Below are positions 429-34,637 of a stretch of 64,000 nt of DNA, one piece after another. The first letter of the stretch is position 1. Each line of letters opens with the position of its first letter. The notes beneath the pieces were generated by a model. It was not told where the DNA came from and made no database searches. It saw only the letters and a program-made list of their open reading frames with translations. The position numbers and the translations under genes are program-made. Source of the DNA: Coriobacteriaceae bacterium (GTDB taxonomy: Bacteria > Bacillota_I > Bacilli_A > RFN20 > CAG-826). The stretch lies in assembly GCA_963612925.1 (NCBI GenBank), contig CAVDXG010000002.1, positions 5,543 through 69,542 on the forward strand, written 5' to 3'.

Positions 429-509
429 CGCTATTTTATTATAGATGAGCACTTAAATTTTTCCTATAGTTGATGGCATTTCAAGAAAGAATGTTTGATA
501 ATTGAAGTT

Positions 510-1994
510 ATGAAGAAATATATATTAGCCCTTGACCAAGGAACAACATCCTCTAGAGCCATCATTTTTGATGAATGTGGTCATAAAATTGCTCAAGCGA
601 GTCGTGAAGTCGCTTGTCTATATCCTGAAGAAGGATATGTGGAAGCTAATCCAATGGAAATTTGGATTTCAATCGTGGATGTTACAAACGAGGTTTTGAT
701 CAATTCCAACCTAACTTGGAAAAATATTGATTCAATCGGTATTACCAATCAAAGAGAAACGACGATTATTTGGGAAAAGAAAACAGGAAAACCTGTTTAT
801 AATGCGATTGTTTGGCAGTCTCGCCAATCCGCGAAGATTTGTGATCAATATATAGATAAGAAGGAATTCATCCATAAAAGAACAGGACTATTATTAAATC
901 CATATTTTTCAGCCAGTAAAATTCGCTTCATCTTAGATCATATTCCTAACGGCCAAGAGCGAGCTGAAAACGGCGAATTCATGTTTGGCACAGTTGATAG
1001 CTGGCTAATTTATAAGATGACTAATGGCAAAAAGCATTTAACCGATGTTAGCAACGCTTCTAGGACGATGTTATTTAACATCAATACTTTAAAATGGGAT
1101 AAATCATTACTAGATTTATTCAACATTCCAAGAGTGATGTTACCACATGTCTGCGATTCATCTTTTGATTATGGTGTTGCCAGTGCTTTTAATAGTAGCG
1201 TCCACATCTTAGGTGTGGCGGGTGATCAACAAGCTTCTTTGTTTGGACATAACTGCTTTGGTAAAGGACAATCTAAAAATACTTATGGAACAGGTTGCTT
1301 TATGCTCATGAATATTGGTGATAAACCAATTCTATCTAAAAACGGCTTGCTCACCACAGTGGCGTGGAGCATTGATAAGAAAGTTAGCTACGCCTTAGAA
1401 GGTTCGGTCTTCATCGGTGGCGCAGCGATTCAATGGCTTAGAGATGGCCTTAAAGTTATCTCCGATGCCGCCGACAGCGAGCATCAAGCTAAGAAAATAT
1501 CAGATTCGATGGGCGTTTATTTAGTCCCAGCTTTCGTTGGACTTGGCACGCCTTATTGGGATGATGATGTTAAAGGGGCGATGTTTGGCATCACTCGAGC
1601 TACGACTAAAGCTCATATCATTCGGGCGACCTTAGAGTCGATTGCTTATCAAAGCAAAGATGTTTTTGACATCATGGAAGAAGAATCAAACATTAAAATA
1701 AAGTCGCTTCAAGTCGACGGAGGAGCAACAGCCAACAACATCCTCATGCAATTTCAAAGCGATATTTTAAATATCAAAGTCTATAAGCCTGAATGCTTAG
1801 AGACTACCGCTCTCGGGGCGGCTTATTTAGCTGGTCTAAAAAGTGGCTATTGGAAAAGCATCGATGATATTTGCTCTTCCCATAGCTATAAGCAAACTTA
1901 TTCGCCAAATATGAGCAAAGAGGAAATAAGTAGACGCTACGCCGGCTGGAAAGAAGCAGTTAAAGCGACAATGATGTTTAAACCTGGAAAATAA
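510..1994 (+). CDS. glpK: Glycerol kinase
   Basis: MKKYILALDQGTTSSRAIIFD and GDQQASLFG are FGGY/GlpK motifs. The length is typical. ATG 510 is preferred over the in-frame TTG at 495 because homologues start right at the M-x-KYIL motif. Confidence 0.95.
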   Translation: MKKYILALDQGTTSSRAIIFDECGHKIAQASREVACLYPEEGYVEANPMEIWISIVDVTNEVLINSNLTWKNIDSIGITNQRETTIIWEKKTGKPVYNAIVWQSRQSAKICDQYIDKKEFIHKRTGLLLNPYFSASKIRFILDHIPNGQERAENGEFMFGTVDSWLIYKMTNGKKHLTDVSNASRTMLFNINTLKWDKSLLDLFNIPRVMLPHVCDSSFDYGVASAFNSSVHILGVAGDQQASLFGHNCFGKGQSKNTYGTGCFMLMNIGDKPILSKNGLLTTVAWSIDKKVSYALEGSVFIGGAAIQWLRDGLKVISDAADSEHQAKKISDSMGVYLVPAFVGLGTPYWDDDVKGAMFGITRATTKAHIIRATLESIAYQSKDVFDIMEEESNIKIKSLQVDGGATANNILMQFQSDILNIKVYKPECLETTALGAAYLAGLKSGYWKSIDDICSSHSYKQTYSPNMSKEEISRRYAGWKEAVKATMMFKPGK

Positions 1995-1998
1995 AAAA

Positions 1999-3081
1999 AT
2001 GAAAATAGCAAAAGAACAATTCGATAAAATCTATCCTTTATTAAATATTGATTCGCGTTTAAATAAGGATTTCATTTTTGATTGTTTAACTTTTGCTCTT
2101 GAAGGAGCAGATGAGCTAATTAACAAAAATGTTTTCGGTAAAGTTGTGCCGTTAAATCCGGTTTCTTTATGTTTATATATTGCTCATGAATATGGCTATA
2201 ACGAAAAACTTAATGACTTTAAATTAGAAGAAAATGATTCATTGATGGAAAAAGTGGTGTCGATGTCACTTGATAAATATTTCACCAATGAACATCTTAA
2301 TTTTGCTAACAAGGCTTCAATTACTAAATACGATCCCGAGATTTCAACATTAGCCACTTATCTTAACTTTGTCTTAAATGTTTTATCGAAAGTAAGCCGC
2401 CGCAATCCGAGTGAAACTTTGATTGTCGATATTTTATATAAATCCTTTTCAATGTCGAAAGCGATTATTGAATTGTTAGATGATGGCTTTGAAACTGAGG
2501 CTTTCTCCACCTGGAGAACGCTTCACGAATCAGAATGCGTTTTAGCTTTATTAGTTAAACATGGGCAAGACATTCGCAATGCCTATTTAAAACATATCAA
2601 TTACATGATGGCGTTTAGAGGAATTATTCCTGATAAAGAGAAAGTTGATCAAATCTTTGTGCAAATAAAAGATGAGATGAAGAAATTATCTTTGAAGAGC
2701 AAAGATATGAAAAAATACATTGAATACGGTTGGCTAACTGCGATTCCTAATTATTTAGAAGCTGAGCAATTTAAATTTAATTTTCGCGATGGCGTCGAAC
2801 ATCTCGCGGGATTAAGCCAATATTCTAAGACTTATGAGATGGCGAGTGAAATTGCTCATGGTTCGCCTATTCTCATCTATTCAAAAAGTACCTTCTTCTA
2901 TCAAATAACTTTAATCAACTTGTATGAATCATTCTTTAGACTAGAAGTTATTTTTACCAATATATATAAATCAATTGCTAATGAAGATGAATTCGCTAGA
3001 TTCTTGACGATGAAAAATATTTATTATCGAAATTTGTTAGTCATCTATGAAGAATCGAAGAAGAATTTTAAAGGGAATTAA
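1999..3081 (+). CDS. Hypothetical protein, 360 aa, no recognised catalytic motif. The C-terminal half resembles the DUF5677 family from memory (unverified).
   Basis: Long ORF with matching codon usage. It starts 4 nt after the glpK stop. No TM segments are evident. Confidence 0.7.
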   Translation: MKIAKEQFDKIYPLLNIDSRLNKDFIFDCLTFALEGADELINKNVFGKVVPLNPVSLCLYIAHEYGYNEKLNDFKLEENDSLMEKVVSMSLDKYFTNEHLNFANKASITKYDPEISTLATYLNFVLNVLSKVSRRNPSETLIVDILYKSFSMSKAIIELLDDGFETEAFSTWRTLHESECVLALLVKHGQDIRNAYLKHINYMMAFRGIIPDKEKVDQIFVQIKDEMKKLSLKSKDMKKYIEYGWLTAIPNYLEAEQFKFNFRDGVEHLAGLSQYSKTYEMASEIAHGSPILIYSKSTFFYQITLINLYESFFRLEVIFTNIYKSIANEDEFARFLTMKNIYYRNLLVIYEESKKNFKGN

Positions 3082-3314: not shown

Positions 3315-4523
3315 ATGGCAATTAAATATGTTTTGATTAGTTGTTGGCAAGAGCACGGAGGAAAACCTGGATTAGCTCTTTTACGCTTTGATGAAGATAA
3401 GGGAATTACTAAATTAGTTAATAAACAGTATGAAAATATCTCTTTTAACAATGCTTATTATAATAAAGAAAATAAAGTAGTTTATATTTGTAACGAAGTT
3501 CATAACAACCCCGATTATCCTAAAGGTGGTGGCGGGCTCATCTACGCTTTTAAATTTGATAAGGAAAAAGAATTATTGACTCAAATTTCGCGAGTTGAAT
3601 CTTTATGCCCATGCCCATCATATCTTTGTCTAGATAAGAGCAAAAAATATTTAATTAACGCCAATCACTCCTCATTTAACGCTGTCACTATTGCGAATAA
3701 ACTTGACGATGGCTATTGGGGCTTAAAAGTCATCTATGATGATGCGATTGTTTCGCTTAGACGAGTTGATGTAGATGGTTCTTTAAAAGAAGTTGTAGAT
3801 GTTAAAAAGCACGATAAATATAAAGTTGATGGCCGAGGTTTACATGCTCATCCACATAGTTGCAATTTAACACCTGATGGCAAATTCTTCGTTTGTTGCG
3901 ATAAAGGTGATTCACATATTTATTTATATTCATTAGATTATGAAAGCGAAAAATTAATCTTAAATAGCGAACCTTATCTAGACAATGAAGGTGCTGCGCC
4001 TAGATATGTGGTATTTCACCCTTTTAAAAACTGGATGTTTGTAAACCATGAAAGAGATTTACATTTATCAAGTTTTTCATATTCATCTAAAGGTGAATTG
4101 ACTCGTTTAGATTCATGTGAAGTTTTGAATAATAACAGTTTAAAAGAAACTAAGGAAATTAGAGAATGGCTTCACAATGAAAGCGTTGATGAGCCAAAAG
4201 ATCACATTTGGCCAGTTGAACAACAAGGGTTAGCTATTTCTTCAGATGGCAAATATTTATATGATGCGATCAATGGGGCGGATGCTATTTCAGTTTTAGA
4301 AATTGATCAAAACAATGGGCATTTAAAGCTTGTTCAAGTTATGCCGATTGACGGCAGATGGGTAAGAGGCGTCAATATTTCCTCTGACAATCGATTCCTA
4401 TTTGTTTCTTGTTTACAAGAAGGTGGCGTTTATGTTTATAAGTTAAATGCTGATGGCACACTTGGTGAAATTATTTCTCATATCGATATCGATGGAGGTT
4501 CCACGATTACATTTTTGGATTGA
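3315..4523 (+). CDS. Lactonase-family 7-bladed beta-propeller protein (6-phosphogluconolactonase-like)
   Basis: About 400 aa with repeated blade-like segments. GAAPRYVVFHP resembles the G-x-GPRH-x-xFHP motif of the YbhE/lactonase family. Confidence 0.7.
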   Translation: MAIKYVLISCWQEHGGKPGLALLRFDEDKGITKLVNKQYENISFNNAYYNKENKVVYICNEVHNNPDYPKGGGGLIYAFKFDKEKELLTQISRVESLCPCPSYLCLDKSKKYLINANHSSFNAVTIANKLDDGYWGLKVIYDDAIVSLRRVDVDGSLKEVVDVKKHDKYKVDGRGLHAHPHSCNLTPDGKFFVCCDKGDSHIYLYSLDYESEKLILNSEPYLDNEGAAPRYVVFHPFKNWMFVNHERDLHLSSFSYSSKGELTRLDSCEVLNNNSLKETKEIREWLHNESVDEPKDHIWPVEQQGLAISSDGKYLYDAINGADAISVLEIDQNNGHLKLVQVMPIDGRWVRGVNISSDNRFLFVSCLQEGGVYVYKLNADGTLGEIISHIDIDGGSTITFLD

Positions 4524-4528
4524 AAATT

Positions 4529-6181
4529 ATGAATGATTATTCTTATAAAGATATTGACATGTGGTCGGATAAAACTTGGGAAGGAACAGATGCTTTAATC
4601 CATCCAATTGTTTCAGATTTAATTCGATATAATTATGAACATATTTTTCCTAACTATAAATCTAACAAATTTTTAAATTGTTCTTTCGAAGTGCTTGATC
4701 ATAAATCTAATGCAGCGATTTTTGATGATGTTATCGCCGAATTATCCGATTTAGGGCTAGAGTTTCATTGCACATCTATGGGCTTTGTGGAATGGGTAGC
4801 TTTGCTTCCTAAAAAGAGAAGCAGAGACACTAAATTATTGGTGGTTTTCACTTCGATGGATACAAAAAATGACCCATTATGGGCGATGGAATTAACAGAA
4901 TATTATCGCGATTATATCTCTATTTCCGGAAAAAACGACTTTGCTATTTTGTTTTTGGTTCAAGCTCATGATCGTGTAACTGGCATTTATACCGACATCA
5001 TCTTAGAAGTTTCCGCCTTATGGAAAATTGATATGAAGGAAGTCTATTTAGAAGCTAAAAATGTCAAAAAAGATTATGGCGGTTTTAAGAAAAGTGAATT
5101 TTTTGGCATTGAAGCAATTGATATTACTAATAAATGGCAAGCTACAACTGCTCATCAATATATATGCTTAAGTTTAAATAAAAAGAACAAAGAATTTGAT
5201 GTTAATCGTTTTGTTCATTCTACCCTTGGAAAACGAATTGCTGAATCCCTCCATTTAGAAAAACAATATCGAAAATGGAATGATGAAGGCTTACTTAAAA
5301 AAATAAATGAAAAAGGCTTAGATATAAACGAGCATTACACTCAAAAAGAGAGATGGCTATCGATTACTCCAACTGATATGAGTGAAAAGATACCACTTCT
5401 TATTTGCATGAAAGAGGTTAGACCTACTTGTGAATTTCAAGCGGTGACAGCTCTTCAATTCTATTATGATTATTTAGATGTTGCTGGATGCAAAGAATGT
5501 GCACTTCTTTTCTTTGCTTTAGAATCGCCAGATGATAACGATTTGCTTGTTGATATTATCGATGAAATGTGCGCTTTATATCCGATTGATAGGGAAAGAA
5601 TTTATATAACTGGCCAATCTCATAATGGCTGTTTCGCTTTAGAATTTGCTAGACGACATCACGATATAATTGCTGCAGTCGCCACGCTTAATGATAGACA
5701 TGGCTTTGCTTCGCCTAGATATTCAGTTGATAACGTAAAAATAACCGATTCGATGTTAGAGGATTTCAAAACATTTGATTTACCTTTAATCAACATTTGC
5801 GGACAGATTGAAAATGTTTTTCCTCATACAGTTATTGATAGCGTTGCTTACTATAATCAACTTAATGCTTTGCATCGCCGATTTGAAGCCTTCAAAGTTC
5901 ACGATTATAGCGATGAAGAAATTAAAGATGCTTTAAATAGTTCAAATAAAGTTGTACGCATTAATGGACTTCCAAGTGATAAAACTGAAATTATCTATAC
6001 GATGGGCTTTGAAGCTTATGTTTCAGATTTTAAAAATAGCGATGGCAATTATCATCTGCGATTAGTTACATTAGAGAATTTACCACATATGATAACGCCT
6101 CAAATGGTGGAGTTATCCTGGTCATTTTTAAGACGTTTTTCGCGTAACAAAGATGGAATAATTATCGAAAGAGAAAAATAA
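4529..6181 (+). CDS. Two-domain protein with an unknown N-terminal half and a C-terminal alpha/beta-hydrolase of the PHB-depolymerase/CE1-like esterase type
   Basis: DRERIYITGQSHNGCFALEFARRH is the nucleophile-elbow region. The C-terminal LPHMITPQMVELSWSFLRRFSR parallels the tail of the 21800-23017 esterase. An alternative TTG start at 4520 overlaps the upstream stop. Confidence 0.6.
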   Translation: MNDYSYKDIDMWSDKTWEGTDALIHPIVSDLIRYNYEHIFPNYKSNKFLNCSFEVLDHKSNAAIFDDVIAELSDLGLEFHCTSMGFVEWVALLPKKRSRDTKLLVVFTSMDTKNDPLWAMELTEYYRDYISISGKNDFAILFLVQAHDRVTGIYTDIILEVSALWKIDMKEVYLEAKNVKKDYGGFKKSEFFGIEAIDITNKWQATTAHQYICLSLNKKNKEFDVNRFVHSTLGKRIAESLHLEKQYRKWNDEGLLKKINEKGLDINEHYTQKERWLSITPTDMSEKIPLLICMKEVRPTCEFQAVTALQFYYDYLDVAGCKECALLFFALESPDDNDLLVDIIDEMCALYPIDRERIYITGQSHNGCFALEFARRHHDIIAAVATLNDRHGFASPRYSVDNVKITDSMLEDFKTFDLPLINICGQIENVFPHTVIDSVAYYNQLNALHRRFEAFKVHDYSDEEIKDALNSSNKVVRINGLPSDKTEIIYTMGFEAYVSDFKNSDGNYHLRLVTLENLPHMITPQMVELSWSFLRRFSRNKDGIIIEREK

Positions 6182-28450: not shown

Positions 28451-30091
28451 TTAGTCAGCGTAGCAACTTCCTCCGATGAATTCGCGCATGAGTGAGTTGC
28501 ATGGAACCCATTCATCTGGCATATCATCAAAGTATTTAAGCATTCTAATTAGTCTTTCCGCGATTGGGAAATATGGATCGAATTGATCAATTGCTGTAAG
28601 AAGTGGCAAGGCATATTTTTTCATGACGCATAATTCGTATGAGAGCATGGAGTTATAGACATAATCCGCTCCTTCTTGCGTATCGTAAATCCATTTGAAT
28701 TCGCCTCGACGAACGCTTGGCCACATCGACATCGTCTCTTCTGCGCTGGCGGCTCTAAATTTGAAGTCGCGGACAATTCGGCGAAGAAGTCGAAGGTCGG
28801 TAATTGAAATTGGGTTGGTGTTATCGAGGTTGATTTGAGCTTGTGGAGCGATGAAGATTTTGAATTTTTGATGCTTTGGAATTAAAGTGGTCATTCTTTC
28901 ATTTAAAGCATGAATTCCTTCAATGATAATTGGCTCATTTTCGCCAACATGAAGAACTCTTCCAGGCACTCTTTTGCCTTGTTTAAAGTCGAATTTAGGA
29001 AGCTGGACAGTTTTTCCAGATATTAAATCGAGCATATCTTTGTTGAATAATTCAACATCTAAAGCTTCAATACTTTCTAAATCCGGTTTTCCATCTTCGT
29101 CGATTGGCGCAAGTGATTTTGGTAAGTAGTAGTCATCGATTGAGATTCTAATTGGTTTAATTCCACGACTTAATAGTTCGATTCTTAATCGATTTGCAAA
29201 GGTAGTTTTTCCTGACGAGGAAGGACCGGCGATGCAAATAAGACGGATATTAGAAATATCGCTTTCGATTAAGTCACCTAAGTGCGAGAGCATGCGGTTA
29301 TGACGCGCTTCGCAGAGTTGGATGAAATCGATGACGCCGTCTCTTTTAATGTGTTCGTTAATTCCTGCTACTGAATCTGCGCCGGCAATTTTGCCCCAAG
29401 CATGTGATTCCTTCAAGGTTTTGCCAAATGTTGGGGCATCCACGAACTCAGGAATGATTCCGCCACATTCAGCGCGAGGGTATTGAAGAATGATGCCAGG
29501 CTGATAAAGTTTGAGCTTGAATTCTTTTAAATATCCAGTGGATGGGACCATGTGAGAGAACATGTAGTTTAAATAGCCGTTGCAATCATATAAATGGATT
29601 GTTTTCTCTGGACGATATTTCAAAATATCGAGTTTATCTTCTAAATCGTTTTGTTTATAGACTTCTTTTGCTTCTTCTTTGCTGACGACAAAGCGTTTAA
29701 GAGGATAGTCCATATTCACAATGCGATGCATTTCTTTTTCGATTTTTGCCACCATGTCTAAATCACTTGATTTCTTGGTGTTGATTAGTTGAATAAAGAT
29801 TGATCTAGAGACGTTATAGCAAAGTCTAATCTTTAAATCTGGATAGACATTGTGAAAAGCCATCGCAGTAATAAAGCGAAGTGAAGCCTCATAAATTTTA
29901 ATGGCGTCAGTATCTTTAACGGTTAGAAATTCAACATTAGCGTCATAATAGACCTCATAGGTGAGTTCTCGAAGGCGGTTGTTGACTCTAGCACAGATGA
30001 CTGATTTATCATTATTTTCGATTAAATCTAATAATTTAACCTTTTTATCAAATTCTTTTTCTTGTCCTAAATATTTTAATTTAAATGACAT
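28451..30091 (-). CDS. Uridine-kinase-family nucleoside kinase with an N-terminal ThrRS/TGS-like extension
   Basis: P-loop IAGPSSSGKTTFANRL. The size (~547 aa) and architecture are typical of long Udk-like proteins in Bacillota. The start was chosen at MSFKLKYL (30091), which is preceded by GGAGGG. Confidence 0.7.
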   Translation of the reverse strand: MSFKLKYLGQEKEFDKKVKLLDLIENNDKSVICARVNNRLRELTYEVYYDANVEFLTVKDTDAIKIYEASLRFITAMAFHNVYPDLKIRLCYNVSRSIFIQLINTKKSSDLDMVAKIEKEMHRIVNMDYPLKRFVVSKEEAKEVYKQNDLEDKLDILKYRPEKTIHLYDCNGYLNYMFSHMVPSTGYLKEFKLKLYQPGIILQYPRAECGGIIPEFVDAPTFGKTLKESHAWGKIAGADSVAGINEHIKRDGVIDFIQLCEARHNRMLSHLGDLIESDISNIRLICIAGPSSSGKTTFANRLRIELLSRGIKPIRISIDDYYLPKSLAPIDEDGKPDLESIEALDVELFNKDMLDLISGKTVQLPKFDFKQGKRVPGRVLHVGENEPIIIEGIHALNERMTTLIPKHQKFKIFIAPQAQINLDNTNPISITDLRLLRRIVRDFKFRAASAEETMSMWPSVRRGEFKWIYDTQEGADYVYNSMLSYELCVMKKYALPLLTAIDQFDPYFPIAERLIRMLKYFDDMPDEWVPCNSLMREFIGGSCYAD

Positions 30092-30242
30092 ATTGTGCCC
30101 TCCAAGTAACGAAATTAAATATATATGAAAGCGCTTCAATATTCAAGATTGGAAAACGCAAAATAGTTCGCAATTTTAAAATGTTTGTTCAAATTGTTTA
30201 GATAAGTTCTATTTATATATTTATAAAGATATAATTTAATTC

Positions 30243-31709
30243 ATGGAAGAAAAGATAATAGTTATTGGAGGTGGCATAGGTGGATTAGCCTCCTCTATAG
30301 AAGCCTTAAAAAGAGGTTACGAAGTCCATTTGTTTGAGAAAAATCCTTGTTTAGGCGGACTTTGTTTTTCTTTCTTTAGAAAAAGTCACTATATCGATGG
30401 CTGTCTTCATTGGTTAACAGGCACAAAAGAAGGTACATTTTTGAATTCACTTTGGAAAGAATATGATGTGCTTAATGATGATGTTGAAATCATTAAATTA
30501 GATTCATTAGTTTCTTATAAAAATAAATTCCATCTTTATCGCAGTTATGAAAAAAGCGAGGAAGAATGGCTTAGAAACGCTTCTGAAGATGAAGAAGAGA
30601 TTCATCATTTTTTCAAAATGGCGAAGCGCTTCAGCATGCTTCAACTTGCTAGTTTAAATAGGCCGTATGAACTTTTATCTTCTGATGATGTTTATTCGAT
30701 GGTTAAGGAAAAATATCCGAAGTTATTGCCTTTTATAGATGAGTTAAGAATTTCTAGAAGTGAATACGCCTTAAGATTTAAAAATGCTGATTTGCGCTTT
30801 TTCATTGAAAATGCTCAAGTTGGCTATAACGATTTATTTTGCTTATTGTTTGTTTACACCAAGTTCGTGCAAGGCGATGTTGATATTCCTTCCGGCGGTT
30901 CTTTAAAGATGATTGAACGAATGAAAAAATTATTTTTATCTTTAAATGGAAAACTGCATTTAAACGAAGCAGTTGAAGAAATAATTGTCGATAAGGGAAC
31001 TGTCAAAGGAATTAAAACTAATAAGGGAAGCTATTATTCTAATTATGTAATTGCATCACTTGATCCTTTATATACATTAAAGGTATTGCTAAAAGGAAAA
31101 TTTCATTGTCCAAAATTAGAAGAGGCTTACCTTGATAAAAAAAATTACCCTCTTACCGGTGCTTTTCAATTAACTTTTCTTTTAAATGAAAACATCAATA
31201 TTTTTGAGGCCTCAAATGTTATAAAAACTGAACCGTTATTGATTGGCAAAAATGAATATGTTGCATCTCTACTAAGAAATTATTCATATGATAAGAAATA
31301 TTTTTCCAATAATGGAAAGACTATTCATCACATCTTTTTTAACCAAAATGAGGATGATTATCTCTTTTGGAAAAGTTTAGATCAAAAATATTACATGCAA
31401 GAAAAAGAAAGAATTGCTTTAGATATTCAAAAAGAATTGTTCAAACAATATCCTTCTTTAAAAGATAGTTTTGAAGTGATTGATATATTTACGCCTTTAA
31501 CTATTTCTAGATACACGAATGCCACTTGCGGGGCATATATGTCTTTTCCGGTTTTAGGCAAAAAGAATGCCATTTTTTATGATGGGAAAATAGAGGGATT
31601 AGCTAATTTTGTTTTTGCTAATCAATTTCTATCTTCTCCAGGTGGACTTCCTAACGCTTTGATAAACGGCAAATTAGCGGTCTCTAGATTATTAAATGAG
31701 CCTTTTTAA
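30243..31709 (+). CDS. FAD/NAD(P)-dependent oxidoreductase, phytoene desaturase (CrtI)-like family
   Basis: N-terminal IIVIGGGIGGLASS dinucleotide-binding motif. About 490 aa. Confidence 0.7.
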   Translation: MEEKIIVIGGGIGGLASSIEALKRGYEVHLFEKNPCLGGLCFSFFRKSHYIDGCLHWLTGTKEGTFLNSLWKEYDVLNDDVEIIKLDSLVSYKNKFHLYRSYEKSEEEWLRNASEDEEEIHHFFKMAKRFSMLQLASLNRPYELLSSDDVYSMVKEKYPKLLPFIDELRISRSEYALRFKNADLRFFIENAQVGYNDLFCLLFVYTKFVQGDVDIPSGGSLKMIERMKKLFLSLNGKLHLNEAVEEIIVDKGTVKGIKTNKGSYYSNYVIASLDPLYTLKVLLKGKFHCPKLEEAYLDKKNYPLTGAFQLTFLLNENINIFEASNVIKTEPLLIGKNEYVASLLRNYSYDKKYFSNNGKTIHHIFFNQNEDDYLFWKSLDQKYYMQEKERIALDIQKELFKQYPSLKDSFEVIDIFTPLTISRYTNATCGAYMSFPVLGKKNAIFYDGKIEGLANFVFANQFLSSPGGLPNALINGKLAVSRLLNEPF

Positions 31710-31717
31710 AGGTTGCA

Positions 31718-31778
31718 AAACCGGAATTTCCCGTGACTTTTAACCGGAATTTCCCGTGATGATTTCTTGAGTGTTATC
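31718..31778. repeat. 61-bp direct repeat, left copy, with an internal tandem pair of 18-mers AACCGGAATTTCCCGTGA
   Basis: It matches 33138-33198 with a single mismatch (31768 t versus 33188 c). The 18-mers lie at 31719-31736 and 31742-31759. Confidence 0.9.
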
Positions 31779-31799
31779 AACTTTTATTATTTCATGTTG

Positions 31800-33089
31800 C
31801 TAATCTTTGATGCAACCGATTGGAATGACTTTAACCCCTTCTTTGGAAGTCACGGCATATTCAGTAGCAGTAATAACAATTAATAGAGTAGGTTCAGGTA
31901 TTTCAACTTCTCCTTTTTTCAAATTATTGTTGTGATTAGTTATTAACTGCTTAACTTTTAGCATGTTATTTATGCCTTTTTGAACATTATTCCCACCTAG
32001 TTTTATTTCGATAAGAGCGTATCGGCCATCCTCAAGATGCAAAACTGCATCAACTTCTAAATCGAGTGAATCGTGGTAATGGGAAATATGCCCGTTAATT
32101 GCTTCTGAATATATTTTCATGTCGCGAAATACTAATGTTTCAAATAGATGACCGAGAGTGTCGAAATCTTTATTGAAATAATTTGGGCCTATTGCTAATG
32201 CTGCGATGGCAATAGAAGGGTCGATGAACATTCTTTTTTTAGCAGAACGCAAGTTTTTTTTAGAACGGATTTGCGGACACCACGCATCGATGTCTTCAAT
32301 TACATATAAATCTTTTAATTTAGAGACATATTCATCAAATGTTTCTTCAGAAAAGCCGAAAGCAAATGCGCTGTCGCCGAGCAATACATTTTTCTTTGCT
32401 AAAGTAGCAACATTTCTTGCATAACTTTTAAGGATGGCTTTTGTCCATTCTCCATTTCGTTTTTTCTCATCTATGCTCGAGATGTCTTCAGTGTATATTT
32501 GCTTAAAGTAATCTTTAGCAACTACTAATTGAGCTTCTTTATTTTTAATTGCTAATGTTTTTGGCCAGCCGCCACGACACATTGCAAATATTAAATCATC
32601 CATAGATAAATCGCTTTTGATGCCATCGATGTCTAAAGTGGGATTATCGAAAAGTTCTTTTAATGATATTTTTCCATTAGATTCGCTTGTCTCATATAAA
32701 GACATTGGAAGCATCTCGATTGTAGCTATACGAGCTGTGCCTGTGTGAGCAACTTTTACTTTTTTTGATGATGAACCTGTTAAATAAAATTCGCCAAAGC
32801 AGGAATCTTTGTCGGATTCAGAACGAACGAGGTTCCATACTGATGGAGCATCTTGCCATTCATCAAAAAGAATTGGTTTTTCATTTTTTAGAAATGTAGA
32901 AGGTTTTATTGAGGCGATATTTAAATAATCTCTCCTTAAATCTGGATCTTGAAAAGCGATCACAGTTTTGCAACGCTCTTGAGCGGTTCTTGTTTTTCCT
33001 GAGCCTTTTGGACCTAAGATATTAATCCCGCCCATGGCTTGAGAATATAGATCGATTTTCTTATCAATTATTCTTTTTTTGTATTCCAT
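31800..33089 (-). CDS. AAA-type ATPase with a DUF4143-like C-terminal domain carrying a PD-(D/E)xK-like motif
   Basis: Walker A GPKGSGKT, Walker B-like ILFDEWQD, and C-terminal DLEVDAVLHLEDGRYALIEIKLGG. Its own SD (AGGAGG) and TATAAT lie upstream. Confidence 0.8.
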   Translation of the reverse strand: MEYKKRIIDKKIDLYSQAMGGINILGPKGSGKTRTAQERCKTVIAFQDPDLRRDYLNIASIKPSTFLKNEKPILFDEWQDAPSVWNLVRSESDKDSCFGEFYLTGSSSKKVKVAHTGTARIATIEMLPMSLYETSESNGKISLKELFDNPTLDIDGIKSDLSMDDLIFAMCRGGWPKTLAIKNKEAQLVVAKDYFKQIYTEDISSIDEKKRNGEWTKAILKSYARNVATLAKKNVLLGDSAFAFGFSEETFDEYVSKLKDLYVIEDIDAWCPQIRSKKNLRSAKKRMFIDPSIAIAALAIGPNYFNKDFDTLGHLFETLVFRDMKIYSEAINGHISHYHDSLDLEVDAVLHLEDGRYALIEIKLGGNNVQKGINNMLKVKQLITNHNNNLKKGEVEIPEPTLLIVITATEYAVTSKEGVKVIPIGCIKD

Positions 33090-33137
33090 ACGAGCTTCCT
33101 CCTAAATTATATGAATTTTAAATGATCAAAACAATAT

Positions 33138-33198
33138 AAACCGGAATTTCCCGTGACTTTTAACCGGAATTTCCCGTGATGATTTCTCGAGTGTTATC
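33138..33198. repeat. 61-bp direct repeat, right copy
   Basis: See the left copy. The 18-mers lie at 33139-33156 and 33162-33179. Confidence 0.9.
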
Positions 33199-33428
33199 GA
33201 TATTTTTATTTTTTTGAGGCAATTTTTTTGATACATTTTTGTTTCGAATTTGGAAGTATTATAATTTTGCAAATTTATATGATGAAAACGCGAGTAGATT
33301 AGCTCTTTAAAAACGATGAAATTAAATGAATTATTGTGCTAATCAAGGAAATTAATTTATTGAATTATTCAATTAAAAATATTGAGATGATACAATAATC
33401 ACGGCTAAAGTTTAGGAGATAGATTTTT

Positions 33429-34637
33429 ATGAGTAAAAAAGCAATGGTTTACATTCAAAGTGGTGGTCCAACTTCGGTTATTAATTCCTCCCTTTATGGA
33501 GCAATTATCGAAGCTAAGAAACACGGCGATAAAATCGATAATATTTATGGTTCGCTTTACGGAATTGAAGGACTATTAACTGATGATTTAATTGACTTGA
33601 ACAAAGAAGATGAAAAAACAATTGAATTGTTGAAACAGACTCCAGGTTCAGTTTTAGGAACAAGTAGACATAAACTGCCAAAAGATTATCATCACGAAGA
33701 ATATCAAGAAATTATTAAAACTCTTAAAAAGCATAACATCGGTTATGTCTTTGTTAATGGCGGGAATGATTCGATGGATACTTGCTATAAGCTATCTGAA
33801 TTATGCAAAGAACTCAACCTTGATATCAAAGTTATGGGCGTGCCTAAAACAGTTGATAATGACTTAGCAGAAACTGACCATTCTAACGGATTTGGTAGCG
33901 CAGCTAAATACATTGTTAACACTGTGAAAGAGATTTGTGTTGACGCCAAATGCTATAAAAAAGGAAAAGTTTATATCATTGAAATTATGGGTAGAAATGC
34001 TGGCTGGTTAACAGCTTCTGTTGACTTACTTGAAGGAGAAAATCGACCAGATTTGATTTATCTACCTGAAAATAAATTTGATTTAGACCGCTTTTTAGAT
34101 GATGTTAAGAAATTATTTAATAAGAAAGGTAACGCGATTGTTGCTGTTAGCGAAGGCATTAATTTTGAGCGAGATGAAAGCAATGTTCGCGTTGATTCAT
34201 TTGGCCATAAGCAACTCGGCGGAGCCGGTTATGATTTAGCTAAAATTGTCGAGAGTAGACTAGATTTGCCTACTAGATCAATTGAATTGTCGTTGCCTCA
34301 AAGAGCTTATTCATTTTTGACTAGCAAAGTCGACCAAGATGAAGCGATTATGTGCGGAAAACTTGCAGTTATCAAAGCTTTAGAAGGTGTAAGCGGAAAA
34401 ATGATCGCCATCAAAAGAGTGAGTTCAAGCCCTTGCACTGTTAGATATGAAGATGTTGATATTTCTAAAATCGCCAATGTCGAAAGAGTGGTTCCTTCTT
34501 CAATGATGGTTGACGACACAAAAATGGCGCCTTCATTTAAAGAATATTGCCTTCCTTTAATTCAAGGCGAGATAGTAGTTGAATACGAAAATGGCATCAT
34601 CAAAAGTGCGCAGTTAAAGAAGATAAAAGTTAACTAG
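33429..34637 (+). CDS. pfp: 6-phosphofructokinase, probably PPi-dependent
   Basis: SGGPTSVINS, GGNDS, PKTVDNDL and MGRNAGWLTA are PFK family motifs. Asp at the Gly104-equivalent position and Lys in PKTVDND are the residues associated with PPi use. Confidence 0.8.
   Translation: MSKKAMVYIQSGGPTSVINSSLYGAIIEAKKHGDKIDNIYGSLYGIEGLLTDDLIDLNKEDEKTIELLKQTPGSVLGTSRHKLPKDYHHEEYQEIIKTLKKHNIGYVFVNGGNDSMDTCYKLSELCKELNLDIKVMGVPKTVDNDLAETDHSNGFGSAAKYIVNTVKEICVDAKCYKKGKVYIIEIMGRNAGWLTASVDLLEGENRPDLIYLPENKFDLDRFLDDVKKLFNKKGNAIVAVSEGINFERDESNVRVDSFGHKQLGGAGYDLAKIVESRLDLPTRSIELSLPQRAYSFLTSKVDQDEAIMCGKLAVIKALEGVSGKMIAIKRVSSSPCTVRYEDVDISKIANVERVVPSSMMVDDTKMAPSFKEYCLPLIQGEIVVEYENGIIKSAQLKKIKVN

What the first reader, a model, noticed from the sequence alone, without database searches (positions are those of the whole stretch)
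31718..33198. Single AAA-ATPase/nuclease-like gene bracketed by near-identical 61-bp direct repeats: a candidate insertion cassette of unknown mechanism
31718-31778 and 33138-33198 are identical apart from one mismatch (t at 31768 versus c at 33188). Each copy contains two tandem 18-mers, AACCGGAATTTCCCGTGA, spaced 23 bp apart. Each 18-mer holds the dyad GGAA-T-TTCC, so there are four copies of a protein-binding-like site in total. The repeats enclose exactly one gene with its own promoter-like TATAAT and SD, inserted between unrelated housekeeping genes (the CrtI-like gene and pfk).

Removing one repeat plus the gene (1420 bp) would leave a clean crtI-repeat-pfk junction. That is what site-specific integration or repeat-mediated capture would produce. 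No integrase, transposase or inverted terminal repeats are present. Mobility would therefore need a trans-acting factor or the encoded ATPase/nuclease-like protein itself.

COG1373/DUF4143-type ATPases are widespread, often multi-copy, and functionally uncharacterised. A self-contained repeat-bounded unit could point to a selfish or defence-type module.
Basis: partly seen in the sequence, partly recalled or inferred. Interest (0 to 1): 0.7.

Follow-up and report, generated by a model that had tools for sequence, protein, structure and literature searches.

The report
Repeat-flanked ATPase-nuclease gene, present or absent
A single gene of a very common but untested candidate phage-defence family sits between two copies of its own promoter-side array of protein-binding repeats, sister strains carry one array and no gene at the same spot, and the same 23-base repeat array turns out to precede this gene family across bacterial phyla.

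Summary
Two 61-nt direct repeats (R; one mismatch, 1420 nt apart) bracket one minus-strand gene (31800-33089; AAA_14 + DUF4143; PADLOC PDC-S01).

Empty sites exist. Two conspecific contigs (about 97% nt identity) and a sister species carry crtI-like gene, one R, then pfk, with no ATPase gene.

R is not a generic repeat or a classical att site. It is the gene's own upstream array of direct repeats with a 23-nt period, ending 3 nt (6 nt from the iteron core) before the -35 box. In 72 of 73 distinct homologue loci, the best upstream period is exactly 23 nt. These span Bacillota, Bacteroidota, Actinomycetota and Chlorobiota, down to 26% protein identity. Among 354 control upstream regions, none unrelated to the family shows such an array.

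Array sequence changes together with the predicted winged-helix recognition helix, so the protein probably binds its own array.

The downstream duplicate array is unique to this lineage (1 of 61 arrays). Recombination between the two arrays explains the presence/absence polymorphism. Whether that recombination is passive or protein-driven is unresolved.

No recombinase, transposase or inverted repeats were found. I found no published description of the array.

The parts
31718..31778 (-). R-left: a complete copy of the iteron array (two 18-nt iterons at 31719-31736 and 31742-31759, plus a degenerate distal unit). It lies 21 nt past the ATPase stop codon and 8 nt past the crtI-like stop codon.
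   Evidence: This is the position occupied by the single R in empty sites L120/L121. Logan contig L119 ends 30 nt into it.
31779..31799 (-). 21-nt tail between the stop codon and R-left. It is part of the 1420-nt unit that is missing from the empty sites.
31800..33089 (-). ATPase-nuclease gene, 429 aa: AAA+ domain (Walker A GPKGxGKT, Walker B DEWQD), winged helix (about residues 213-290) and a PD-ExK nuclease motif (D347, E361, K363).
   Evidence: Pfam. PADLOC PDC-S01, E 8.5e-50. Invariant residues in the 21-sequence alignment. AF2 model with pLDDT 88.7. Foldseek matches to PABY2304, ORC/Cdc6 and Card1. 19 synonymous against 4 non-synonymous codon changes versus L037.
33098..33103 (-). Shine-Dalgarno sequence AGGAGG.
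   Evidence: Read directly from the sequence.
33106..33134 (-). Promoter-like element: -10 TATAAT (33106-33111), 17-nt spacer, -35 TTGTTT (33129-33134).
   Evidence: Homologues have the same layout, with the array followed directly by a TTG-type -35, about 17 nt, then TATAAT. The strict scan did not call it.
33138..33198 (-). R-right: the gene's own upstream iteron array (iterons at 33139-33156 and 33162-33179, 23-nt period, plus a degenerate distal unit). The R block ends 3 nt before the -35 box; the conserved TTCCGG core of the last iteron ends 6 nt before it.
   Evidence: The family-wide equivalent is shown.
30243..31709 (+). Left neighbour: CrtI-like FAD/NAD(P) oxidoreductase. Context only, not part of the unit.
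   Evidence: Orthologues flank the empty sites.
33429..34637 (+). Right neighbour: PPi-dependent phosphofructokinase, followed by the F-type ATP synthase operon. Context only, not part of the unit.

Best explanation
The unit is one autonomous gene of the PDC-S01 / COG1373 family. The protein has an ORC/Cdc6-like AAA+ ATPase, a winged helix and a PD-ExK nuclease domain. The gene comes with its own cis element: an array of direct repeats (iterons) with a fixed 23-bp period that ends 3 nt before the -35 box of its promoter (6 nt from the core of the last iteron).

Shown:
- This array is a near-universal, family-specific feature.
- In the window, the 61-nt repeat R is that whole array.
- In this lineage a second, nearly identical array lies 21 nt past the stop codon.
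- Conspecific strains and a sister species carry one array and no gene at the same site.

Inferred:
- Head-to-tail protomers of the ATPase bind one iteron each through the winged-helix recognition helix. This controls the gene's own promoter, in the way plasmid Rep proteins bind iterons and Orc1/Cdc6 binds ORB elements next to its own gene.
- The presence/absence polymorphism arises by recombination between the two directly repeated arrays. That could be RecA-type or template-switch deletion of the 1420-nt unit, leaving a solo array. The reverse reaction would insert a circular or donor copy into a resident solo array.
- Protein-bound arrays could favour this by stalling replication forks or synapsing the two arrays, but no dedicated recombinase is required.
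For: The array is specific to the family:
- The best period in positions -175 to -30 is exactly 23 nt in 72 of 73 distinct homologue loci. In 354 control upstream regions it is 23 nt in 18 (5%).
- Only three controls reach the score cut-off. Two have period 23: another DUF4143 paralogue and the same array seen from the neighbouring gene. The third has period 21 and is unrelated.
- Arrays of three or more units with period 23 occur only upstream of the ATPase gene in about 0.5-0.7 Mb of flanking DNA.
- The array is present in distant plasmid-borne homologues from four phyla at 26-48% identity.

The array travels with the gene:
- The 80%-identical homologue sits between tRNA genes in another context. 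It has three units of CACGGGAAACTCCGAAC, against the window's TCACGGGAAATTCCGGTT.
- Homology between different contexts starts at the first iteron and stops at the stop codon.

Evidence for self-binding:
- Iteron sequence is lineage-specific and decays to random similarity by about 60% protein identity.
- In protein pairs 93-95% identical whose iterons have changed, 4 of 22 and 4 of 29 substitutions fall at residues 247, 249, 252 and 255. These lie in the predicted recognition helix H3 (248-260).
- A 17-residue sliding partial correlation with iteron distance peaks at residues 241-257 (r = 0.46, the highest of 52 windows).
- The fold resembles ORC/Cdc6-type AAA+ plus winged helix.

Evidence for the polymorphism:
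- Empty sites L120/L121 and a diverged solo array in L122.
- R-gene-R in a second strain, with a different single SNP between its two copies.
- The gene is under purifying selection: 19 synonymous against 4 non-synonymous changes.
Against: - No binding or expression data exist. The covariation test uses phylogenetically non-independent pairs and few substitutions.
- A downstream second array was found in only 1 of 61 distinct arrays. The origin of the duplication is not explained by the family's normal anatomy.
- If R-gene-R predates the split from the L122 species, the two R copies should differ by about 12 of 61 positions, as L122's R does. They differ at 1 of 61. This needs either concerted evolution or a recent re-insertion.
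- L122's solo array is better conserved (82%) than the adjacent spacer (about 61%). A pure relic would not be expected to be.
- Empty sites L120/L121 come from k=31 assemblies, which cannot span a 61-nt repeat by k-mers alone. I accept them because contigs of the filled sample break at R, whereas these traverse it. Also, no ATPase of 90% identity or more is on record from those samples. This is indirect evidence.
Confidence: 0.6

Rival explanations
1. Active, array-directed mobility. The AAA+/winged-helix/PD-ExK protein assembles on two arrays, synapses them and uses its nuclease to excise a 1420-bp circle (array, promoter, gene, tail). It then re-integrates the circle into any resident solo array, so the array acts as an att site and the protein as its own recombinase.
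For: - The arrays are in direct orientation, and the indel is bounded exactly by whole arrays.
- A solo array occupies the same site in two species.
- The two R copies are almost identical despite about 18% divergence from L122's R. That fits recent re-integration.
- The family occupies many unrelated contexts: between tRNA genes, on plasmids, next to a MobL relaxase.
- The PD-ExK catalytic residues are invariant.
- Flank matches show an excess of direct over inverted orientation, 7 against 1 in 74 loci.
Against: - 60 of 61 distinct arrays have no second copy.
- No solo arrays were seen in about 0.7 Mb of other flanks.
- PD-ExK nucleases alone are not known to carry out strand transfer (established knowledge).
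- The other two long flank repeats (L070, L102) lie outside the arrays. In L102 the repeat is host paralogue upstream sequence.
- No circular junction was seen. The contig end overlaps are explained by k-mer and SNP geometry.
Confidence: 0.17
2. R is a host regulatory site of the crtI-pfk spacer, for example an operator for a glycolytic regulator of the CggR/SorC type, which uses direct repeats. On this reading the ATPase gene merely landed in it or copied it.
For: - A solo R is conserved at 82% in the same spacer of a sister species that lacks the gene. That is better than the neighbouring spacer.
- pfk is a central glycolytic gene.
- The resemblance to CggR direct-repeat operators rests on my own knowledge only.
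Against: - The same motif family sits upstream of the 80%-identical ATPase in a context unrelated to glycolysis.
- A 23-nt array at that position is a family-wide property.
- R lies about 230 nt upstream of the pfk start codon, far from the conserved pfk promoter and its palindrome.
- The 18-mer occurs nowhere else in the 64-kb window.
Confidence: 0.05
3. The array plus the ORC-like AAA+ protein form a replication origin and initiator module of a small integrated or plasmid-like element. R-gene-R would then be a slightly longer-than-unit copy of a 1420-bp replicon.
For: - Iterons of about 18 nt at a 22-23-bp spacing next to the initiator gene are the classic plasmid-origin layout (established knowledge).
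- Foldseek finds ORC/Cdc6 subunits with probability 0.87-0.96.
- Homologues occur on plasmids.
- R-gene-R amounts to 1.04 unit lengths.
Against: - TM-scores to ORC are low, at 0.19-0.24.
- There is no change in GC-skew polarity at the locus.
- The plasmids carrying homologues are large (23-900 kb). One has another typed replicon, several have relaxase typing, and all annotate the gene only as a DUF4143 protein.
- Most copies are single chromosomal genes between housekeeping genes.
- A nuclease domain is not typical of iteron-binding initiators.
- No helicase or primase is encoded.
Confidence: 0.05
4. Artefact. The duplication, or the empty sites, arise from mis-assembly across a repeat.
For: - Logan assemblies use k=31, which is shorter than the 61-nt R.
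- A collapsed repeat could in principle join the crtI flank directly to the pfk flank.
Against: - Contigs of the filled sample stop at R exactly as a true 2-in/2-out repeat node predicts.
- A second sample independently gives the gene with R at both ends and its own SNP.
- L122 is a 119-kb MAG contig with a diverged solo array.
- The 90% cluster of the ATPase holds only two sequences, from the two filled samples.
Confidence: 0.04

Closest known systems
PDC-S01 (PADLOC phage-defence candidate; COG1373; Pfam AAA_14 + DUF4143)
   Same: Same protein family, shown by HMM matches. It is a single-gene system with an ATPase fused to a PD-(D/E)xK nuclease. It is abundant and patchily distributed (PMC12988326).
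   Different: The papers I could search say nothing about a conserved cis element, promoter architecture or repeat-bounded presence/absence alleles. Defence activity is untested for this clade. One PDC-S01 representative gave no protection against T4, T5 or T7 (bioRxiv 10.1101/2024.09.26.614923).
Iteron-regulated plasmid Rep genes (pSC101 RepA, F RepE, R6K pi, RK2 TrfA) and archaeal Orc1/Cdc6 with ORB repeats
   Same: These have direct repeats of about 17-22 bp spaced about two helical turns apart, next to the gene of the protein that binds them (established knowledge). A winged-helix DNA reader is involved. The AAA+ plus winged-helix fold resembles ORC/Cdc6.
   Different: There is no sequence homology to Rep_3 or Orc1 families and structural similarity is low (TM 0.19-0.24). 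The protein carries a PD-ExK nuclease. There is no evidence of replication. The period is fixed at 23 bp and the array ends at the -35 box of an ordinary chromosomal single gene.
Campbell-type integrative elements and integron gene cassettes
   Same: Directly repeated sites flank a small cargo. The empty site retains exactly one site. The cargo is a single promoter-bearing gene.
   Different: No tyrosine or serine recombinase, attC-like hairpin or integron platform was found. The 'site' is the cargo gene's own regulatory array. 60 of 61 family arrays have no second copy.
Solo-LTR formation, or deletion between short direct repeats
   Same: Two near-identical direct repeats bracket a unit, and recombination leaves one repeat behind. 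The second filled strain shows an independent single SNP between its copies.
   Different: There is no reverse transcriptase or element-wide terminal repeats. The repeat is a protein-binding array of 61 nt.
Pyrococcus abyssi Walker-type ATPase PABY2304 (PDB 2qen; Arch_ATPase family)
   Same: It is the best structural match to the AAA+ plus helical/winged-helix part (Foldseek probability 1.00, TM 0.42/0.50).
   Different: There is no detectable sequence similarity. Sequence identity in the structural alignment is 14%. Function is also unknown. It has no PD-ExK domain of this type.

Membership tests
PDC-S01 / COG1373 (AAA_14 + DUF4143) | N-terminal AAA_14 P-loop ATPase domain above the Pfam gathering score | tested here: met
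   PF13173, 50 bits against a cut-off of 27. Walker A G26-P-x-G-x-G-K32 and D76-E77 are invariant.
PDC-S01 / COG1373 (AAA_14 + DUF4143) | C-terminal DUF4143 (PD-(D/E)xK fold) with catalytic residues | tested here: met
   PF13635, 91 bits against a cut-off of 28.1. D347, E361 and K363 are invariant in 21 sequences. DUF4143 is listed as PD-(D/E)XK in PMC3424549.
PDC-S01 / COG1373 (AAA_14 + DUF4143) | Match to the PADLOC PDC-S01 models | tested here: met
   PDLC04790, E 8.5e-50, covering residues 3-381.
PDC-S01 / COG1373 (AAA_14 + DUF4143) | Protection against phage | not testable with these tools
   There are no data for this clade. One PDC-S01 gene tested elsewhere was negative against T4, T5 and T7.
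Iteron-type initiator/origin module | Tandem direct repeats at about two helical turns, adjacent to the gene of the binding protein | tested here: met
   The period is 23 nt in 72 of 73 loci, and the array directly precedes the -35 box.
Iteron-type initiator/origin module | Protein homologous to a known initiator (Rep_3, RepA/RepE, Orc1/Cdc6, DnaA) | tested here: inconclusive
   No Pfam or PDB sequence match. Foldseek matches ORC/Cdc6 with probability 0.87-0.96 but TM of only 0.19-0.24.
Iteron-type initiator/origin module | Origin function (autonomous replication, strand-skew switch) | tested here: not met
   Cumulative GC skew rises monotonically through the locus. Strains without the gene keep the array between housekeeping genes. 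Replication itself cannot be tested here.
Site-specific integrative cassette (tyrosine/serine recombinase elements, integron cassettes) | Directly repeated attachment sites flanking the cargo, and an empty site with one copy | tested here: met
Site-specific integrative cassette (tyrosine/serine recombinase elements, integron cassettes) | Cognate recombinase in or near the element; attC-type structured site for integron cassettes | tested here: not met
   The unit has one ORF. No integrase or recombinase domains were found in the 24 window ORFs scanned. There are no Rfam hits. R has no hairpin-forming inverted repeat beyond a 4-bp dyad.
Site-specific integrative cassette (tyrosine/serine recombinase elements, integron cassettes) | Circular excised intermediate | not testable with these tools
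   Raw reads are needed. The contig end overlaps are explained by repeat and SNP geometry.
Insertion sequence / transposon | Transposase, terminal inverted repeats and a short target-site duplication | tested here: not met
   There is no transposase domain and no terminal inverted repeats. The 61-nt flank repeat is cargo-derived array sequence that travels with the gene in other contexts. It is therefore not a target duplication.

The most novel reading that the evidence does not exclude
The 23-bp iteron array is the recognition and assembly site for a new kind of self-contained mobile gene. An ORC-like AAA+/winged-helix/PD-ExK protein polymerises on its own arrays, synapses two of them, and cuts and rejoins DNA (or provokes host repair). 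The array-promoter-gene unit then excises as a circle and docks into solo arrays left at earlier sites. That would make PDC-S01 genes selfish single-gene elements with a recombinase type not seen before, rather than (or in addition to) defence genes.
Probability: 0.12. Interest if true: 0.9.

Novelty: new variant of a known kind. Interest (0 to 1): 0.62.

Why it matters
PDC-S01 is reported as the fourth most common defence candidate in prokaryotes, with about 39,000 detected copies (PMC12988326). It has no known mechanism, and one reported phage test was negative.

A conserved cis element with a fixed 23-bp period, present across phyla and co-varying with the predicted DNA-reading helix, gives the family its first concrete and cheaply testable molecular handle. 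It suggests what the protein binds, how many protomers bind and in which geometry, and how the gene is controlled.

The window adds a natural experiment. Filled and empty alleles of one locus are bounded exactly by two arrays. The question of whether these genes move on their own, and whether bound arrays drive recombination, can therefore be addressed by PCR or read mapping in samples that are already named.

If the arrays prove to be only autoregulatory operators, the locus is an ordinary repeat-mediated indel of an accessory gene.

Tried and rejected
1. **Exact 18-mer scans.** The scan of 185,579 GTDB representative genomes gave 29 single, scattered hits in unrelated taxa and no tandem pair. 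This is close to my own estimate of about 17 chance hits for an 18-mer in that much sequence. The IMG/VR scan gave 4 single hits inside a high-GC coding region. These are chance matches. The source species is apparently not among the representatives, so genome-wide copy number of R could not be measured.

2. **Rfam and tRNA scans of the window.** Nothing was found.

3. **Target-site-duplication model** (a cassette without an array inserted into a resident array, duplicating it as CRISPR repeats are duplicated). Rejected. Arrays travel with the gene into unrelated contexts, and homology between contexts starts at the first iteron.

4. **Host operator for pfk.** Rejected; see the rival explanations.

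5. **Replication origin.** Considered unlikely.

6. **Circular element inferred from contig end overlaps.** Rejected. The 10-nt and 26-nt overlaps are exactly what k=31 unitigs give for a 61-nt repeat with one SNP.

7. **Deeper synteny.** CrtI homologues at 67%, 55% and 47% identity have other neighbours, so the history of the site cannot be traced further back.

8. **Whether the 80% homologue (P0002) belongs to the same genome as L122.** Cluster look-up gave no accessions. Unresolved.

9. **PDB sequence search with the family profile.** No hit.

10. **Search for a general flank-repeat signature.** Three loci have direct flank repeats of about 75 nt, but only the window's contains the array. 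No general rule could be claimed.
Full report
**1. Observation**

31718-31778 and 33138-33198 are direct repeats (R) with one mismatch and a spacing of 1420 nt. The 18-mer AACCGGAATTTCCCGTGA occurs four times, two per R and 23 nt apart. It occurs nowhere else in the 64-kb window even with three mismatches allowed, against 0.05 expected by chance.

One gene lies between the repeats, on the minus strand (31800-33089, 429 aa). It has its own AGGAGG, a perfect TATAAT and a weak -35 TTGTTT at a 17-nt spacing. Its neighbours are a CrtI-like flavoprotein gene and a PPi-phosphofructokinase gene followed by the ATP synthase operon.

Independent k=31 contigs from two sequencing runs break inside R exactly where a true repeat predicts. 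In a second strain the gene again has R at both ends, with a different single SNP between the copies. The duplication is real.

**2. The protein**

- Pfam gives AAA_14 plus DUF4143, and PADLOC gives PDC-S01 at E 8.5e-50.
- A 21-sequence alignment shows invariant Walker A and B residues and an invariant D347...E361-x-K363 nuclease motif.
- The AlphaFold2 model is confident (pLDDT 88.7, pTM 0.89). It has an AAA+ core, a winged helix (H213-225, H233-244, H248-260, then two strands) and an alpha/beta nuclease domain.
- Foldseek finds the Pyrococcus Walker ATPase PABY2304 (TM 0.42/0.50), then ORC/Cdc6 subunits bound to origin DNA, and Card1/Cdn1 through the nuclease domain.
- No solved structure matches by sequence.
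- Between two strains the gene differs at 19 synonymous and 4 non-synonymous codons, so it is under purifying selection.

**3. What R is**

The 80%-identical homologue lies in a different context: between two tRNA genes, beside a second DUF4143 gene and a hydrogenase cluster. It carries three tandem units of CACGGGAAACTCCGAAC, 23 nt apart, directly upstream of its -35 box. This is the same motif family as the window's TCACGGGAAATTCCGGTT.

I then fetched 80 metagenomic loci of the family (49-63% identity) and further homologues from plasmids. Essentially all have 2-8 tandem direct repeats that end at the -35 box.

- After dereplication, the best period between 15 and 32 nt is exactly 23 nt in 72 of 73 distinct upstream regions.
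- In 354 control upstream regions from the same loci, the best period is 23 nt in 5%, which is the uniform expectation.
- Only three controls reach the score cut-off. Two have period 23: another DUF4143 paralogue and the same array seen from the neighbouring gene. The third has period 21 and is unrelated.
- Strong period-23 arrays occur nowhere else in 0.5-0.7 Mb of flanking DNA.
- The array is also present upstream of homologues on plasmids of Bacteroides (48% identity), Collinsella (33%), Prosthecochloris (27%) and Lentilactobacillus (26%).

So the period is conserved across phyla while the sequence is not. Iteron similarity falls to the random level by about 60% protein identity.

R therefore equals the complete array of this gene: two good units plus a degenerate distal unit, as in L035. 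The R block ends 3 nt before the -35 box, and the TTCCGG core of the last iteron ends 6 nt before it.

**4. Who binds the array (inference)**

The constant 23-bp spacing, the lineage-specific sequence and the fixed position next to the gene all point to the encoded protein itself.

- In two protein pairs that are 93-95% identical but have changed iterons, 4 of 22 and 4 of 29 substitutions fall at residues 247, 249, 252 and 255. These lie on one face of the predicted recognition helix. About 0.9-1.1 would be expected by chance.
- Pairs that keep the iteron type have no substitutions there.
- Across 451 pairs, the partial correlation between local substitutions and iteron distance, controlling for divergence elsewhere, peaks at residues 241-257 (r = 0.46, the top of 52 windows).

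This is supportive, not conclusive, because the pairs are not phylogenetically independent. The closest functional analogies are plasmid Rep proteins on iterons and Orc1/Cdc6 on ORB elements. Membership in those families is not supported.

**5. The polymorphism**

Two contigs whose flanks are 96.6-97.0% identical to the window carry crtI-like gene, one R, then pfk. Their 298-nt spacer is the window's spacer minus the 1420-nt unit, allowing for a 1-nt indel in the spacer, and both junctions match.

A sister species (CrtI 77%, flanks 78-84% nt identity) also has a solo array there and no ATPase gene. Its two units have drifted apart, whereas units are identical in the window. That fits a relic. 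Yet the array is still 82% identical, against about 61% for the adjacent spacer.

Among 61 distinct arrays, only the window has a second copy next to the gene. The repeat-bracketed layout is therefore peculiar to this lineage. It is not the family's way of sitting in genomes.

Recombination between the two arrays accounts for the empty alleles. The direction (loss or gain) and the agent (host recombination or the bound ATPase-nuclease) are unresolved.

- For an old filled allele: the cassette differs by 1.9% between two filled strains.
- For a recent duplication or re-insertion: the two R copies differ at 1 of 61 positions, whereas L122's R differs at 11-12.

**6. Other readings**

- No recombinase, transposase, inverted terminal repeats, tRNA or structured RNA is associated with the unit.
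- The 18-mer is not a dispersed repeat in public genomes or viral contigs. The scattered single hits are consistent with chance.
- A host operator, a replication origin, a target-site duplication and an assembly artefact were each considered and judged unlikely. The reasons are given under rival explanations and under tried and rejected.

**7. Literature**

DUF4143 appears in three papers of the searchable library, always with unknown function. PDC-S01 is described as the fourth most common defence candidate, an ATPase fused to a PD-(D/E)xK nuclease, and unvalidated (PMC12988326). One representative gave no protection against T4, T5 or T7.

I found no description of a conserved upstream repeat array. 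Absence from this library is not proof of novelty.

**8. Verdict**

The repeat is reinterpreted as the gene's own 23-bp iteron array, which is a family-wide and apparently undescribed cis element.

The locus is a new variant of known kinds, combining an iteron-controlled gene with a repeat-bounded accessory-gene indel. Self-mobility remains an open possibility with low probability and high value.

Noticed in passing
window 33359-33373: A perfect 15-nt palindrome, ATTGAATTATTCAAT, lies just upstream of the pfk promoter-like region. The block ATTGAATTATTCAATTAAAAAT..ATGAGATGATACAATAATCA is almost invariant between the window, L120/L121 and the sister species L122, while the rest of the spacer is not. 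It is a candidate pfk operator and promoter.
   Followed up: partly
window 3100-28400 versus L122 4087-4191: In the sister species the FGGY-kinase and DUF5677 genes (window 470-3081, 91-96% aa identity) directly adjoin the PRK-family gene (window 28451-30139). The window therefore has about 25 kb here that L122 lacks at this position. The extra DNA encodes a lactonase, a MatE transporter, LysR regulators, a peptide ABC system and others. It is either an insertion or a rearrangement.
   Followed up: no
L070 3797-3873 and 5391-5467; L102/L106 3786-3859 and 5284-5344: Two other family members are also bracketed by direct repeats of about 75 nt (83% and 78% identity). These repeats lie outside the iteron array. 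In L102 the repeat equals the upstream region of paralogous lipoprotein genes, with a third copy near L102:2282. Across 74 loci, flank matches were direct in 7 cases and inverted in 1.
   Followed up: partly
L035 2815-4137, 4292-4364 and about 6060-6140: The 80% homologue sits between two tRNA-like sequences. One (4292-4364) is confirmed by Rfam. The second (about 6060-6140) was recognised by eye only. It lies next to a second, more distant DUF4143 gene whose upstream region has GTGCA/GCACA-type repeats rather than a clear 23-nt array.
   Followed up: partly
L041 2533-2742: One homologue has an unusually long array of at least 8-9 nearly perfect 23-nt units. Close relatives in the human-gut cluster (L078-L099) differ in unit number (3 or 4). 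Arrays therefore expand and contract.
   Followed up: no
L125 1839-2663; L136: A 66% homologue lies next to a MobL relaxase gene. The Lentilactobacillus plasmid copy is surrounded by IS982, IS30 and IS5 transposases. The family is often found in mobile-DNA neighbourhoods.
   Followed up: no
L072 about 6032, minus strand: A second, divergent AAA_14/DUF4143 paralogue in the same contig has its own 23-nt array with a different sequence (tttttagcagtaaattagcgcat...). Paralogues in one genome appear to carry distinct arrays.
   Followed up: no
L002-L005 (IMG/VR) and L006-L034 (GTDB): Single exact copies of the 18-mer occur inside coding regions of unrelated, mostly high-GC organisms. Several are in Chryseobacterium, presumably in one conserved gene. 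I judged these to be chance matches.
   Followed up: partly
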